Positions 1-15,100 of a stretch of 64,000 bases of DNA are shown here, piece by piece (positions within the stretch are counted from its first letter, which is position 1; each line of letters starts with the position of its first letter). Origin of the DNA: a virus (taxonomy: Duplodnaviria > Caudoviricetes). Below the pieces are notes generated by a model. It was given only the letters and a program-made list of their open reading frames with translations. It was not told the origin of the DNA and made no database searches. A program made the position numbers and the translations under genes. Location: the IMG/VR virus record IMGVR_UViG_3300028833_005986, positions 1 to 64,000 of that record, one strand, 5' to 3'.

Positions 1-3000
1 TTATTTTACAGCTTCTAAAACTTCTTGTAAATCATTTTTATTCTTTAATATTTTTTGCTGTTCTTTAAATAATTCTAATTCTTTACGCAGAGGATCTAAA
101 TAATCAGTATCTGCAGTATATTTATTTTTTTCAATAGATGCAATATATAAAGTCTTTTCTTTTTCTAAATTTTGTGGCTGAGAATAAAATAAAATTCGAT
201 TATTAGAATAAAATGTTACTGAACCACGATTATTTTTAGTTCCTGAATAATATATATAATTACCAACTATAAAATCTTTTTTATATTTATTAAATGTTGC
301 ATTATTAAAAGTTTGAGTAATAATTTCATATGGTGTAATAATTTCTACATGATATAAATGAACAATTTCTTTTATTACACCTTGTTCATCTTTTCTTGCA
401 TAATCGAAGGGTGCGATTTCTGTAATTAATCCACCTATATTACAAACTGTAGAAGCAGGAACCATTTGTACATGAGTAATTGATTTAGCTCCTACCATGG
501 GATGATATTTAAAGGATACTTTATCATTATTAAGTATATCATTTGCATACATTTGAAAATTAGTTAATTTACTATTTAAAATTGAATATTCATTATTAAT
601 AAATGGCTTTAATAATGAAGTAAGTTTATTATTTTCTTGAACTTTTTGCAATCGTCCTTTTGCTTTTTTTCTAGTAGAAATTAACTTAGCTAAATCATTT
701 TCATTAAATGTTTTATCAGCATTTGATCCATATATACCGAATTCATTTAATTTTGAAAATGGTACAATAATAGTATTATCTTTTTCAAATACTAATTGTC
801 TATCTTCTTGTAAAAATTTAGGTAATTGAATTTTTTCTAATATGTAATTTTTTTCAGCTTTTTGATTTTTATAATCATAATAAAATTCAAACCATGTAAG
901 TAATTCTCCTCGACTTAAATATATTGGCATTCTACCAAATAATTTATTTTCTTCAGTTAATGTTTTATCTTCGAAAATAATAGGTAATCCTTCAAAACAA
1001 TCATTATTAATTAATGTTTCAATTATTTTTTTATTAACTGCGCCTTTTGCCGCACGTGCAAAAAAATCATTAATGGAATCATAAGGTTGATTTTCTAAAA
1101 TAATCTGAATTGCTGCATTACCAATACCTTTTATTTGACCTAATCCAGTACGAATATAATCATCAGTAATAATAGCCTCAGATTGAGATAAATTTATATG
1201 AGGACCTAATATATTTATTCCTTTATGTTCTGCTTCTTGTTTATATAAAGCAAATTTAGAATTATCAAAAGTAATCATCGCTGCATAAAATGCGATCGGA
1301 TAATTAGCTTTTAACCAAGCCATTTGCATAGTTATTATTGAATATGCGTAAGCCGTTTAAAATATGGACTATATTTTAATATATATATTAAAGATTATTA
1401 GTCTCTGATATAATTTATTATATAAGTTAATAAGTATTAATTTAATTTATCATATAAAATATTACCTTTACGCAATATTCCAATATTATTATAATATATT
1501 TCATTTTTTAAAATTTGCATATTAGTAATTATACTTGTACTTAATTGATAAAATGGCATAGAATACTTTTTTCCTTGAATATTATGTAAATTTAAAGATT
1601 GCATATTAAACCAATTCTCTAATATATTTTTACACCAAGCTAAAAATTCTTTTGATGTACTTACAATATAAAATAACTTTCCATTATGTAATATGCAACC
1701 ATCACCATCAATAATGCCTTGAAATATATAAGGTAAAAATTGATATTCTTCAGGATATAAAATAGGTGGATATAAATTATATGTTTTATGATATACAATA
1801 CCAAATCGTCTTAGCTGTGATACTAATAATTGATTACCTAAAGTAAAATAATATATATTTTTTTTATACTTTATCAATTTATTAGATGAATTACAATTAT
1901 TATATGATCTGATTTTATACTTTATATTAAAATTATTAGCAAATAATATTACAGCTTCAAAATCAGTCATTCGTAAATCAATCTGATTTCTACAATTTAT
2001 ACAACCGTCAGTTAACATAATACCAATAAAATATGCTTTCCAAGCACAATCTAATAACGAAAAATCATAAGCATTATATATATATGTATTTAAATGATTT
2101 ATTGTTAACAAATATTTATTTACTTCATATGGTAATAAAATTTTTATAGGTGATACAATAGTTTCTAATTTATTTGAATGTCTAATAATATTACTATTAG
2201 TAATATTTTCATAGGTATGAATAATATTATATATACTATTACGTGTTTTATATTGATATTTTATACATAAATTTTTAACTGACATACCTGCTTTATAATC
2301 ATTAATAATATTTATAATCTTTTTATTTTGTAAAAATTCTTTATTTTGCATATTAATCCCATTCATTATATTAACTTATATAATTTTATTATATACTGAT
2401 TAATTTAAAATTATAAATTATTCCAGTAATTTTTCTTTTTAAGTCACACTAAATGACTTGCATTACTATAAATTATTATTAATTTTTTAAATTAATACTT
2501 TTTCATAAAAAGTATAGATTATATCATTATGTATATATTTAACAATTAATCGTTGATATTAATATATACTTGTATATATTAATATACTAATTATTACTAT
2601 TAAGTAATTTTTTAGTAAAATATTAAATCAAAAAAGTTCTAACAATTAAAACCATAACCTGATGATGCAAGAATAGTTTCTAACATATATTCTGCAACAT
2701 CTTTACTAAATCCGTTATTTATACTTTTTTCAACAAATGTATTAATAAAATCTTCATATTGTTCTGGAAATTTCTTCTTTTTTTCAATATATCGGCGTAA
2801 TTGATCTGCTTCGCCGAAGCTAATATTTAACATTGTACTTAATATTTGCATATATTTATATTTATAATTAATATTATATTAATTATATTAATTTTCATTA
2901 ATAATTTGGAATATATCTTTATCATTAATATTAAATATTTATTCTCTAGAGTAAATATATAATAATATATATTTACTTTGATATTAATATATATAATATA

Positions 3001-4748
3001 TTTCATCAAATTAAATTAATTAACAAAGTATATTATCTTTGTTCTTGAAATAAAATTACTCCGTAAGTACGATTTAAATAACGATCAATACGTGGATCTA
3101 TTTTTACTCTAAATTTCTGATCATTTTTTGCTTTAATATAAGTATCAACTTGACCTGAACCGGGGCGAATTAATGCTGTTACAGCTGCAACTTCATGAAT
3201 ATTATTAGGCTGTATTTTTCTTAGTATTGGTTTTGAAATTTTAATATTATCCATCTGAAAAATCCCAATAACATCTAAATCACATAATAAATTATAAGCT
3301 TTAGAATCATCTAATGGAATATTTTCTAATTTTATTTCGCCATGCATTTTTTGTGCAGCATCTACAGCATAATATTTTTTAATTAATTGAAGAACTAAAT
3401 CCATTTGGGATAAAGCCGAAAGTTTTAATCAATTATATATAGACTATATTTTTTTTCAATTATATATTTACTAAATATTAGTCGTTAAATACATATTAAT
3501 TTATGAATTAATATGTATTACTGATCTATTAATTCCAGTAATTAATAATATTAACCGACGCATAAACTTTACGTCTATCTTAACTAATCCAAAATTTTCA
3601 AAATTTTCTTTTTCTGCTTGAGCTAGATATCCTGGTTCAGTATCTGCATTAATTACTTTTGCTTGAGTAACTGGTAATAAATCTGTTACTGGTATTGGAG
3701 ATACTCCAACACCAGATGGATGCATTGATATTTGTCTAACTGTACCTTCTAATAATTTAGCATATTTTATTACATCTGGATATTTTTTAATAAATTCCTG
3801 TGCACCTGGTAATTTTTCTAAATTATCTATATGATCTATTGGATTTCCGTCTAAATCTCTATCAGGAATATTTTTAGTAAAATTATTTACTTCATCATAT
3901 GGTATACCTAATACACGACCAACATCTTTTATACATTGTTTCATTTGCATTTTCATAAATGTACATACATTGGCTACATATTCTTTCCCATATTTATCAA
4001 TTAAATGCTGAAATACTTGAGGACCTTTTAACATACAATAATCTGTATCTATATCCATTAACATTTATATTTTCATATAAAATTAGACTATCTCTTTTAA
4101 CTTTTATATAAAGCTAATTAAAACGCTTCGAATAGTAACTCATCTTCTATTCTACTAAAATTAGTCGTTACACATTTAATAAAGATAAACTTCAATAATA
4201 ATTCTTAAATAAACATTGATATTTAATAGTTTTATTTAATTGAGTATATTCTTTTAAATTTAAAAAATCTAATATTTTATTATTAATTGTCATATATCCA
4301 AATTTATCTTTATTATTTTGCACGGTATCACCAGCTATTTATTTTTTTTATATATAATATATTAAAAAAAAATAAACCTTAGGCTTTCTTAGTTAGCTAT
4401 TTATTATTTAATTATTAAGAATTAATTTTATTTTGCTAATACCGTTAGCAACAAAATTTAATATTTGTTACACTGCTGAGTTATGGCATTCATTTTAAAT
4501 GCCCAATATCGTTTAGGCAAATGCTTTCGAGTAGGATTTAAAAAACGTTCAAAAATAAGATCATAATCAATAGGATCCATTTTTGTTATTCCTAATAGAT
4601 TATTAACTACAGATCCTCCGCCAGAATTATGTACTACTAAGCCATCAATATTATATGAATGAATATCATCTATTTCTAAATCGTATACTTTACCTTTATA
4701 ATGATATTCTTTTTTATTGGTAATTTTAATTAATTTAATAAATATCAA
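1..4748 (-). CDS. dnaE: DNA polymerase III alpha subunit, C-terminal half, with N-terminal split-intein (IntC) leader; 6 exons (4748-4515, 4055-3571, 3429-~3041, ~2856-2644, 2460-2453, 1353-1), ~893 aa
   Basis: Removing five introns joins the DnaE motifs in frame: FERFLNP..LP|DIDTD, GLVKIDV|LKL, YGVILFQEQ|YMQI, GYGFN|SSH|AYAY..AWLKANYP, plus HhH GLGQIKGIG. The exon sum is 2682 nt, divisible by 3. The PHP/N-terminal half is absent from the window. Confidence 0.9.
1354..2452 (-). mobile_element. Group I intron dnaE-I5 (1099 nt) carrying a LAGLIDADG endonuclease ORF
   Basis: P1 AAGUCAU/GUGACUU with terminal U-G; AAUUACUGGAA P4-like element; P7 CAGAGACUA/AUAUAGUCC; ends AAACG before GCT TAC GCA TAT. 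Confidence 0.9.
1437..2366 (-). CDS. Intron-encoded LAGLIDADG homing endonuclease / possible maturase
   Basis: Two motifs, YFIGIMLTDG and IFQGIIDGDG, with an N-terminal HTH-like segment; lies inside dnaE-I5. Confidence 0.88.
   Translation of the reverse strand: MNGINMQNKEFLQNKKIINIINDYKAGMSVKNLCIKYQYKTRNSIYNIIHTYENITNSNIIRHSNKLETIVSPIKILLPYEVNKYLLTINHLNTYIYNAYDFSLLDCAWKAYFIGIMLTDGCINCRNQIDLRMTDFEAVILFANNFNIKYKIRSYNNCNSSNKLIKYKKNIYYFTLGNQLLVSQLRRFGIVYHKTYNLYPPILYPEEYQFLPYIFQGIIDGDGCILHNGKLFYIVSTSKEFLAWCKNILENWFNMQSLNLHNIQGKKYSMPFYQLSTSIITNMQILKNEIYYNNIGILRKGNILYDKLN
2461..2643 (-). mobile_element. Miniature group I intron dnaE-I4 (183 nt)
   Basis: Short P1 AAUU/GAUU; UCAACGAUUA...GAUAUAAUCU (P7 GAUUA/UAAUC); P9 hairpin AUACUUUUU-AUG-AAAAAGUAU; terminal G at 2461; restores GFN-SSH. 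Confidence 0.8.
2857..3040 (-). mobile_element. Miniature group I-like intron dnaE-I3 (184 nt, boundaries +/-2, non-canonical ends)
   Basis: 5' hairpin AACAAAG/CUUUGUU; CUAGAGAAUA...AAGAUAUAUUCC (P7 GAAUA/UAUUC). Removal restores FQEQ-YMQI, but the intron then ends in A. Confidence 0.7.
3430..3570 (-). mobile_element. Ultra-small group I intron dnaE-I2 (141 nt)
   Basis: P1 GACGU/GCGUC; P4 UUACUG/CAGUAA; 12-bp P6 hairpin; UUUAACGACUA...AUAUAGUCU; terminal G at 3430; GT|A restores KIDV-LKLSAL. Confidence 0.88.
4056..4514 (-). mobile_element. Group I intron dnaE-I1 (459 nt, ORF-less)
   Basis: P1 UGCCU/GGGCA; UGCUAACGGU; GUAACGACUA/GAGAUAGUCU; terminal G; restores HLP-DIDTD at the catalytic aspartates. 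Confidence 0.9.
4626..4748 (-). mobile_element. C-terminal fragment (IntC, 41 aa) of a naturally split intein
   Basis: KLIKIT...VYDLEIDDIHSYNIDGLVVHN followed by Ser+1 (SGGGS, the DnaE GRG-S site); no intein N-part or DnaE N-half upstream. Confidence 0.85.
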
Positions 4749-4754
4749 TCCCTT

Positions 4755-13918: not shown

Positions 13919-15100
13919 TTATTTATTCAATTTATTAATATATTTTTTTGTGCATGAAATTATATTATCTACAATTTGATAAATATTATTTGATGCTATT
14001 ACTGCACCAGCAGCATGAGGAAAACCATTTCCGCCAAAATAAGACATGATTTCATTAACAAATATATTTCCCCGGCTACGGGCTTTAATTTTTGTATTAT
14101 TATTACTTTCGATAAAAAGAAATGCTACATCGGCTTCTTGTATATTTTTTAATTCTTCCATTAAATATTCTACTACATCATATGTAACATTATATTTTTT
14201 TAAATCTTCTTTCATTAATACTAAATATATAATATTATATTGATTATCATGAATAATATGTGTAAATGCATTATTAATTAGTTTTAATGCTGCTAACGGT
14301 TTTATTTTACATATTTGATTAATTATATTAAGATCTGCATTATTTTTTAATAATAATGATGCATAATATAATGCTAAAGCAGTAGTATTAGAATTTGTAA
14401 ATCCAGATCTAATAATTTATTAAAAAATCATTTTTAATATATTTTATATACCTCTTATAATAAGAGTAAAGACTAAATCATTAATAATATATTAACAATT
14501 TCAATAAATATTTACTATATATTAGCCGTTAATTTAGTATATATTATAATTAATATATGTTAAATATTGATAATATTCTTAAAGATTAAATACCAATAAT
14601 AAAATTAATTATGATATTAATTTAGTATCTCCAAAAATTCCTAAATATAAAGCTGTTGCGATTTGAGGAGTAATATTAATATTCATTTCTGATAAGAAAT
14701 CAAAAATTATCATTGTATTAGCAGGCCAAGAAATATTATAATAATAATTTCCAATTGATTCGTTATTATTATGATGATCTATAACAATTAATAATTTAGA
14801 TATGTTATCTAAATTAATTGTTCTATTCCGTGTAGAACAATCTACTAAAATGCATAAATCGTAATATTTTTTTGCTGTTTTTATTATATTAACATTTTTT
14901 AAAATTAAATTAAATATAGATGAATGTGAAGGCGCAATAATATCTACTTGCTTATTTAATGTTTGTAATGCTAAAGCTAATGCTACAGCAGATCCAATTG
15001 CATCGGCATCTGGAGAAAAATGGAAAGTTATTGCAATATTTTTAATTTGTTTATTATTAAATATATTTATAATTTTTTGCTTAATCTGAATTAAATCCAC
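13919..15100 (-). CDS. nrnA: DHH/DHHA1 phosphoesterase (NrnA-like), 2 exons (15100-14624, 14407-13919), ~321 aa
   Basis: H.SPDADAIGS, VD, IDHH, GIFGDT|SGFTNSNTT, GGNGFPHAAG; frame is open from 14407 to the stop. Confidence 0.85.
14408..14623 (-). mobile_element. Miniature group I intron in nrnA (216 nt, +/-1)
   Basis: P1 AGAUACU/GGUAUUU; UUAACGGCUA...GAUUUAGUCU; removal restores DT-SGF. Confidence 0.82.

What the first reader, a model, noticed from the sequence alone, without database searches (positions are those of the whole stretch)
2855..3041. dnaE-I3 appears to lack both the U-G 5' splice pair and the terminal G
The in-frame join that gives FQEQ-x-MQI leaves the intron ending in A, and P1 is fully Watson-Crick (C-G at the likely site). 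The nearest upstream G (2896) is blocked by an in-frame TAA, and using the G of the ATG deletes a residue or shifts the frame. P7 is still kept by a compensatory change. This suggests relaxed splice-site rules or assisted splicing (inference).
Basis: partly seen in the sequence, partly recalled or inferred. Interest (0 to 1): 0.72.

Follow-up and report, generated by a model that had tools for sequence, protein, structure and literature searches.

The report
Phage intron lacking both splice-site hallmarks
A 184-base self-splicing-type (group I) intron in a giant rumen phage's DNA polymerase gene has neither the U-G pair nor the final G that such introns almost always use to mark their ends, and a sister intron in a tail gene also ends in A, so these introns probably find their splice sites another way; no RNA data exist yet.

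Summary
The third insertion in dnaE is a stripped-down group I-type intron at 2853-3036 on the minus strand (184 nt).

- **Junction fixed by intron-less relatives.** One relative (P0071) is 97% identical over the upstream exon and 100% over the downstream exon. It reads FQEQ-S-MQILSTML. Only one join of the window's DNA gives Ser: CAA AG|A...A|U AUG.
- **Splice-site nucleotides.** The last exon base is G3037, Watson-Crick paired to C3028. The last intron base is A2853. The last G inside the intron is G2896, 43 nt upstream, in the GAAA loop of P9.
- **Guide pairing.** Intron bases 3032-3022 pair without a break with the joined exons (7 bp P1 plus 4 bp P10). Only 43 of 5000 shuffles reach this. 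The five other in-frame joins give at most 6 pairs.
- **Repeated intron-plus/intron-less pairs.** Two more dnaE lineages have the insertion (QEQ-R...) alongside near-identical intron-less alleles (QEQ-S-M).
- **Sister intron.** A 76%-identical intron in a tail gene of the same phage keeps U.G at the 5' site but also ends in A.
- **Canonical neighbours.** Six other introns I checked in this phage use the usual sites.
- **G pocket.** The G-binding G-C pair of P7 is intact, so ATP use is not predicted.

Splicing itself is unobserved. This scan has also noted a nearby nrnA intron and C-G-paired 5' sites in another gut phage.

The parts
3037..3429 (-). dnaE exon upstream of the intron, ending ...UUU CAA GAA CAA AG
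   Evidence: It lies in an ORF in frame with DnaE homologues. Its first base follows the terminal G3430 of the 141-nt intron upstream. It is 97% identical to residues 1-122 of the intron-less P0071.
2853..3036 (-). Group I-type intron 'dnaE-I3', 184 nt, starting AUAAUAUAC and ending AAAUA
   Evidence: This is the only excision that gives Ser (AGU) as in P0071, P0072, P0003 and P0006. It is also the only one with an 11-bp P1+P10 guide. It is 76% identical to a sister intron at G000:159148-159336.
3037..3043 (-). P1, exon strand AACAAAG; G3037 is the last exon base
   Evidence: It pairs with 3028-3022. All seven pairs are Watson-Crick.
3022..3032 (-). Internal guide UAUACUUUGUU; 3028-3022 form P1 and 3032-3029 form P10
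   Evidence: It is complementary, with one G.U pair, to the joined exons AACAAAG^UAUG. Only 43 of 5000 shuffles reach 11 contiguous pairs.
2849..2852 (-). First four bases of exon 2 (UAUG), the exon strand of P10
2978..3009 (-). P4 (UUGAUG/UAUCAA) enclosing the P5 hairpin
   Evidence: It appears in the minimum-free-energy fold. It has the same length in the sister intron, with one A-U to G-C compensatory change in P5.
2950..2977 (-). P6 hairpin, 12 bp
   Evidence: The sister intron forms a hairpin at the same place with a different sequence.
2940..2946 (-). P7 5' strand GAGAAUA, with bulged A and the G of the guanosine-binding G-C pair
   Evidence: It has the same layout as the canonical Id2 intron (GAGACUA/UAGUCC).
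2908..2913 (-). P7 3' strand UAUUCC, preceded by J8/7 AAAGAUA
   Evidence: A local match to Rfam Intron_gpI covers 2921-2888: 16.4 bits, E 0.057 in a 301-nt search, below the gathering score of 50.
2882..2905 (-). P9 hairpin with GAAA loop; G2896 is in the loop and is the last G of the intron
2863..2878 (-). Extra 3' hairpin (UAUAAU-AUUA-AUUAUA), followed by the tail AAUAUAAAUA
2642..2852 (-). dnaE exon downstream of the intron (U AUG CAA AUA ... GYGFN)
   Evidence: It is 100% identical to residues 124-193 of P0071. There is no Shine-Dalgarno-like motif before the ATG.

Best explanation
This is a genuine, much reduced group I-type intron in the split-intein C-half of the dnaE gene of a huge AT-rich rumen phage. 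To restore the protein made by its intron-less relatives, it must be removed exactly as CAA AG|A...A|U AUG.

The 5' cut follows a G in a G-C pair at the loop end of P1, and the intron ends in A. I infer that the splice sites are set by position: an 11-nt internal guide holds both exon ends side by side (P1 plus P10). The U.G wobble and the terminal G are therefore not what marks the sites.

The guanosine pocket of P7 is intact, so the first step most likely still uses GTP. How the terminal A is handled in the second step is unknown.

What is shown: the anatomy, the junction, the intron-plus/intron-less pairs and the sister intron that also ends in A. What is inferred: that splicing happens and how.
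For: **Junction**
- P0071 (97% and 100% identical to the two exons) reads FQEQ-S-MQI.
- P0072, P0003 and P0006 also read QEQ-S-M.
- Distant DnaE homologues have exactly one residue at this position.
- Of the six in-frame joins, only G3037|...A2853| encodes Ser and gives 11 contiguous guide pairs. The others give at most 6, and 43 of 5000 shuffles reach 11.

**The 5' side in relatives**
- P0002 (89% identical) reads FQEQRN-stop and P0004 (66% identical) reads YQEQRNKILC-stop. P0004 is identical to the intron-less P0072 up to QEQ.
- Arg after QEQ fits AG + A in all three lineages. A U at that position would give Ser.

**Group I character**
- P7 and J8/7 resemble the canonical introns of the same gene.
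- A local Rfam match covers J8/7, P7' and P9 with its GAAA loop.
- P4/P5 and P6 hairpins are kept in the sister intron, with compensatory changes in P5 and P7.
- DNA similarity to the sister intron has E 3e-22. Similarity to a canonical intron of the tail gene has E 3e-12.

- The sister intron, G000:159148-159336, must end in A. Three intron-less homologues place Tyr between K and SNSV, which requires AAG U|...A|AU UCU. The next G downstream would delete SNSV.

**Method control**
- Ia, Ib and Id2 of dnaE, the clpX intron and the other two tail-gene introns all have U.G and a terminal G by the same tests.
Against: - No RNA data exist, so neither splicing nor the exact junction has been seen.
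- A terminal A facing an unchanged G-C pocket is expected to be a very poor substrate for the second step. This rests on my knowledge of Tetrahymena ribozyme work; no paper was read here.
- Rfam's full model does not reach its threshold, and P8 is nearly absent, so catalytic competence cannot be taken for granted.
- The DNA of the intron-less relatives could not be fetched, so their Ser codon (AGU) is inferred and not read.
- The guide pairing of the sister intron is not significant on its own.
Confidence: 0.6

Rival explanations
1. Assisted or different chemistry. The RNA fold only brings the exon ends together. The second step, or both cuts, depends on a protein helper, or on hydrolysis at the 3' site followed by an RNA ligase that uses the P1/P10 guide as a splint.
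For: - The terminal A does not fit the intact G pocket.
- The core is heavily reduced, with P8 almost absent and no P2.
- Group I introns often need protein helpers in vivo (PMC3984707).
- The hexacoral ND5-717 intron also ends in A (PMC8146996).
Against: - No RNA ligase family (PF09414, PF01139, PF09511) was found in the 167 kb held. That is only about a third of the genome, and the PF09511 control matched nothing in any control genome.
- No candidate helper has been identified.
Confidence: 0.17
2. Canonical 3' end with a shorter protein. G2849 (the G of ATG) is the terminal G and exon 1 runs to A3036, giving FQEQ-R-QILSTML.
For: - This restores a terminal G.
- Arg follows QEQ in all three intron-bearing alleles.
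Against: - It removes the Met and shortens the protein by one residue. The spacing is fixed in every homologue checked. The Met is kept in nearly all of them and is Ile in L031.
- The last exon base would still not be U, and it would face A3029.
- Guide pairing drops to 4 contiguous pairs.
- It cannot explain the sister intron.
Confidence: 0.08
3. The intron is not spliced. It is either a dead intron in a decaying gene, or DnaE is made in pieces (...FQEQR-stop, then a new start at MQILS...).
For: - A stop codon follows the junction directly, and an ATG sits at the start of exon 2.
- Phage enzymes assembled from separately made pieces are known (my own knowledge).
Against: - There is no Shine-Dalgarno-like motif before ATG 2851, although such motifs precede 34% of long ORFs against a 5% background.
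- The sister intron's downstream exon has no start codon at its junction.
- The exons are intact and 97-100% identical to an uninterrupted allele.
- The insertion is present in three diverged lineages.
- The 11-bp guide to the joined exons would have no reason to persist.
Confidence: 0.1
4. Assembly or sequencing error hides canonical bases.
Against: - At least three substitutions would be needed: 3036 to U, 3029 to G and 2853 to G.
- Two runs of the source sample hold all sampled 31-mers of the stretch in independently built contigs.
- Relatives from other assemblies also read Arg, not Ser, after QEQ.
- The sister intron shows the same A end.
Confidence: 0.03

Closest known systems
Phage group I introns (T4 td and nrdB, Twort orf142; bacterial and phage introns reviewed in PMC3984707)
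   Same: - It interrupts a conserved motif of a phage replication gene.
- It has a P1 internal guide, P4-P6, P7 with a G-C guanosine site and bulged A, AAGAUA-type J8/7, and P9 with a GAAA loop.
- Canonical relatives sit in the same gene.
   Different: - There is no U.G pair at the 5' splice site and no terminal G.
- It is only 184 nt, with no P2 and almost no P8.
- It does not reach Rfam's threshold.
ND5-717 group I intron of sea anemones and other hexacorals (PMC8146996)
   Same: It is a natural group I intron whose last base is A where a G is otherwise considered universal. It sits in an essential gene and yields ligated mRNA.
   Different: - ND5-717 is mitochondrial, large and carries genes in P8.
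- Nothing read here says that it lacks the U.G pair.
- The phage intron is tiny and is present or absent among close relatives.
Compact (~206 nt) group I introns of huge gut phages (Jug phages, PMC12880540)
   Same: Many small introns break essential genes of huge gut phages, together with inteins and homing endonucleases. RNA reads supported splicing for 37 of 76 predicted introns.
   Different: Those introns were found with standard group I models. The passages read do not report unusual splice-site bases.
Engineered Tetrahymena ribozyme with the guanosine-site pair changed to A-U and a terminal A (Been and Perrotta, Science 1991; my own knowledge, not read here)
   Same: It is a group I intron that splices at a terminal A.
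   Different: There the pocket was changed to match A. Here the pocket keeps G-C, so the same explanation does not apply.

Membership tests
Group I intron | P7 helix with a G-C guanosine-binding pair next to a bulged base, flanked by conserved J6/7 and J8/7 sequences | tested here: met
   P7 is GAGAAUA/UAUUCC with J8/7 AAAGAUA. A local Rfam alignment covers J8/7, P7' and P9.
Group I intron | Score above the Rfam RF00028 gathering threshold | tested here: not met
   There was no hit at gathering score or at E<=10 over 9 kb. A 301-nt search gave only a local match of 16.4 bits against a threshold of 50. The canonical neighbouring introns also fail, so the model is insensitive to these AT-rich mini-introns.
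Group I intron | P4-P6 scaffold domain | tested here: met
   P4, P5 and P6 hairpins appear in the fold. They are kept in the sister intron, with one compensatory change in P5 and a different P6 stem sequence.
Group I intron | P3-P8 pseudoknot part of the core | tested here: inconclusive
   A 6-bp P3 (AUUAAU/AUUAAU) is possible, and 7 bp in the sister intron. The registers differ in the alignment, and P8 has at most 2-3 bp.
Group I intron | Internal guide pairing with the 5' exon (P1) and the 3' exon (P10) | tested here: met
   There are 7 + 4 contiguous pairs with the joined exons. Only 43 of 5000 shuffles reach this.
Group I intron | U.G wobble pair at the 5' splice site | tested here: not met
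   The last exon base, G3037, pairs with C3028. There is no G.U pair in P1 and no usable U in the exon end.
Group I intron | Terminal guanosine at the 3' end of the intron | tested here: not met
   The intron ends in A2853, and the last G is 43 nt upstream. All six in-frame joins end in A or U.
Group I intron | Self-splicing started by an exogenous guanosine | not testable with these tools

The most novel reading that the evidence does not exclude
A lineage of phage group I ribozymes (dnaE-I3 and its tail-gene sister) joins exons at a terminal adenosine although the guanosine pocket is unchanged. In dnaE-I3 it also cuts after a Watson-Crick paired G. Both splice sites would then be chosen only by the P1-P10 guide. 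This would be a natural departure from the two most conserved nucleotides of group I catalysis. Alternatively, it would be a new helper-dependent route, such as 3' hydrolysis followed by ligation.
Probability: 0.35. Interest if true: 0.8.

Novelty: new variant of a known kind. Interest (0 to 1): 0.66.

Why it matters
The U.G pair and the terminal G are the two nucleotides that define where a group I ribozyme cuts and joins. Intron finders, databases and ribozyme engineering all assume them.

A natural intron pair in essential phage genes that lacks the terminal G, with one member also lacking the U.G pair, would show how far splice-site choice can be handed to the guide helices. These introns are small (184-189 nt), so they are easy to test in vitro.

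There is also a practical consequence. Huge-phage genomes contain dozens of such mini-introns. Gene models that insist on U...G boundaries will give wrong proteins.

Tried and rejected

- Rfam over the whole window and over 9 kb found no group I hit.
- Single-sequence nhmmer searches found only the query itself.
- RNAalifold on two sequences returned no pairs, and my second coordinate range was cut short.
- Folding-energy z-scores were not significant: -1.5 for dnaE-I3 and -0.1 for the sister intron.
- No RNA holder is listed for the stretch. The holders are sheep and goat gut DNA runs.
- Scans of IMG/VR, metagenome contigs and species genomes for close dnaE relatives gave at most 40% identity.
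- Two pattern scans for more members of this intron family returned only chance or coding matches.
- A scan for the joined 20-mer found seven unrelated phage dnaE-like genes reading QEQSMQIA with AGT. The pattern was built from my join.
- RNA ligase families were not found in the 167 kb held. That is about a third of the genome, and one control matched nothing anywhere.

**Alternatives considered and rejected**
- G2896 as the terminal G: an in-frame UAA follows, it lies in the P9 loop, and it would add about 15 residues that no relative has.
- A 5' cut after U3048-3050: this would delete the QEQ codons.
- A nested or twin intron: whatever remains after the first excision still carries stop codons.
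- Translational bypass: the gap is 184 nt and there are no matching take-off and landing codons.
- Stop-codon recoding: the blocking codons are UAA, and relatives have no insertion at this point.
Full report
**Context**

The window is the first 64 kb of a 166,990-bp IMG/VR virus record. CheckV estimates it at about 34% complete, and GC is about 22%. Near-identical DNA is held by sheep and goat gut runs.

On the minus strand, the C-terminal half of a DnaE-type polymerase starts with a split-intein C-piece near 4748 and runs to position 1. Five insertions break it. The finding concerns the third.

**The observation**

- Exon 1 ends ...UUU CAA GAA CAA AGA UAA. Exon 2 begins AUG CAA AUA at 2851.
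- Distant phage and metagenome DnaE proteins align up to ...QEQ (window 3039) and resume at M (2851), with exactly one residue between.
- Inside the insertion the last G is G2896, 43 nt before exon 2. It is followed in frame by UAA and lies in the GAAA loop of a hairpin that Rfam's group I model aligns as P9.
- The G of the ATG can be the terminal G only if the conserved Met is dropped.
- The exon end has no U later than 3048.

**Is it a group I intron?**

Rfam finds nothing at its thresholds, either here or in the neighbouring introns. A search of 301 nt gives only a local match to J8/7, P7' and P9 (16.4 bits, E 0.057).

The case therefore rests on anatomy and on relatives within the same genome:
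- P7 is GAGAAUA/UAUUCC, preceded by AAAGAUA. This is the same layout as the Id2 intron of the same gene (GAGACUA/UAGUCC).
- P4/P5 and P6 hairpins and P9 with a GAAA loop are present.
- A 76%-identical sister intron lies at G000:159148-159336 (E 3e-22). It keeps these helices, with compensatory changes in P5 (A-U to G-C) and P7 (A-U to U-A).
- P8 is nearly absent and P3 is ambiguous.

I therefore call it a reduced group I-type intron and not a textbook member. The compensatory change in P7 is not at the guanosine site, where the G-C pair and the bulged A are kept.

**Where exactly is the junction?**

The protein search found both interrupted and uninterrupted relatives, and the cluster look-up added two more.
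- P0071 is 97% identical to the upstream exon and 100% to the downstream exon. It reads FQEQ-S-MQILSTML.
- P0072 is identical to the interrupted P0004 up to YQEQ and continues S-M-Q, whereas P0004 continues RNKILC-stop.
- P0002 (89% identical) reads FQEQRN-stop. P0069, whose longest contig has the same length, supplies the exon that starts MQILS.

So three lineages have an insertion after QEQ with Arg as the next read-through codon, and each has an intron-less sibling with Ser. This fits a Ser codon AGU split as AG|U, with A as the first intron base.

Of the six in-frame excisions of the window's DNA, only 3036..2853 encodes Ser. The same excision is the only one in which the intron's 5' region (3032-3022, UAUACUUUGUU) pairs without a break with the joined exons AACAAAG^UAUG: 7 bp of P1 plus 4 bp of P10. 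The other joins reach at most 6, and 43 of 5000 shuffles of the guide region reach 11.

The result is that the last exon base is G3037, paired with C3028 at the loop end of P1, and the last intron base is A2853. The boundaries cannot slide, because the flanking bases differ.

**Is it a one-off?**

The sister intron interrupts a homologue of phage G gp184, the gene next to the tape-measure gene.
- Intron-less homologues at 79-83% identity read DAQ(K/R)-Y-SNSVIM.
- The genome encodes ...CAG AAG U|UU AUA UAG upstream and ...UUUCAA|AU UCU AAU UCU GUU GUC AUG downstream.
- Tyr is obtained only from U + AU. The 5' site then has a normal U.G pair (AAGU/GCUU), and the intron ends in A.
- The next G downstream would delete SNSV, even though those codons are present in frame.

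Both members of this small lineage therefore lack the terminal G, and dnaE-I3 also lacks the U.G pair.

The same tests give canonical sites for six other introns:

| Intron | 5' site | 3' site |
|---|---|---|
| Ia (dnaE) | CCU\| | AAUG\|GAU |
| Ib (dnaE) | GACGU\| | AAUUG\|A |
| Id2 (dnaE) | AAGUCAU\| | AACG\|GCU |
| clpX | GAUGU\| | UAUAG\|AU |
| tail gene, second | AUGGU\| | UUAG\|GAA |
| tail gene, third | GGAU\| | UUUG\|CCU |

I confirmed that its U.G site and its terminal G together shift the frame and run into a stop codon. It too needs either an A end or a cut after a paired C.

**Mechanism**

What is shown:
- a conserved, precisely placed insertion;
- a guide complementary to both exon ends;
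- an intact G pocket;
- intron-plus/intron-less pairs in three lineages.

What is inferred:
- The intron is removed at RNA level. The exons are intact, the genes are essential, there is no ribosome-binding motif before exon 2, and the sister intron's downstream exon has no start codon.
- The sites are set by position in the P1/P10 stack.
- GTP is still the first nucleophile.

The terminal A is unexplained. It may be tolerated at a low rate because P10 is strong, or a helper may act. No RNA ligase was found in the third of the genome that is held.

**Comparison with known systems**

- A terminal A is documented for the hexacoral ND5-717 intron (PMC8146996).
- Many small group I introns are known in huge gut phages (PMC12880540).
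- The canonical mechanism is as reviewed in PMC3984707.
- I found no report of a phage or bacterial group I intron lacking the terminal G, or lacking both hallmarks, in the searches made. These searches cover open-access literature only.

**Limits**

- No RNA evidence was available.
- Only two family members are known.

Noticed in passing
G000:159148-159336 (+), outside the window; held as L002:1521-1709: This is the sister of dnaE-I3: a 189-nt intron in a gp184-like tail gene. It has a canonical U.G pair at the 5' site but ends in A. The same gene holds two further introns, at about 159677-159888 and 160393-160574, both with canonical ends.
   Followed up: yes
window 14408-14624 (-): In the nrnA (DHH phosphoesterase) intron, the U.G site (ACU|) and the terminal G (UUAG|) together give a +1 frame and an early stop. 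An in-frame DT-SGF needs either an A end or a cut after the paired C. Protein comparison cannot decide, because Thr is encoded either way.
   Followed up: partly
window about 2441-2460 (-): Two back-to-back introns lie between GYGFN and AYAYS, with a tiny exon that encodes the Ser-His. Homologues require three residues here. An 8-nt reading (U|CAAGUCAU) and a 13-nt reading (UU|UAAUGCAAGUCAU) both fit, and both have canonical ends.
   Followed up: partly
G000 71.8, 73.2, 79.7, 108.0, 110.3, 118.4, 164.1 and 166.3 kb (outside the window): At least eight near-identical introns (AACGAUUAAU...GAUAUAAUCUAUGCUUUAAUUAAA) are inserted after ...P-x-x-G codons of different genes. Most of those whose downstream frames were readable are followed by a similar ORF beginning LTVKQQVS.YKYKQLYILFKKLCKYSKNLYNSALYNIRQYFF. 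This looks like a recently spreading intron family with a cargo gene.
   Followed up: no
window 4458-4754 (-): The dnaE C-half starts with a roughly 40-residue split-intein C-piece (...DGLVVHN|SGGGS). It is preceded by AAGGGA and a TTG start. The N-half is not in this window.
   Followed up: no
window 3430-3570 (-): A 141-nt intron with canonical ends (GACGU|...AAUUG|A). It is smaller than dnaE-I3 and shows how far these introns are reduced.
   Followed up: partly
dnaE-I3 site in relatives (proteins P0071/P0002, P0072/P0004, P0003): The 184-nt intron carries no endonuclease gene, yet it is present or absent among alleles that are 96-100% identical in their exons. This suggests recent gain or precise loss, through homing by a nuclease acting in trans, reverse splicing, or recombination with intron-less phages.
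   Followed up: partly
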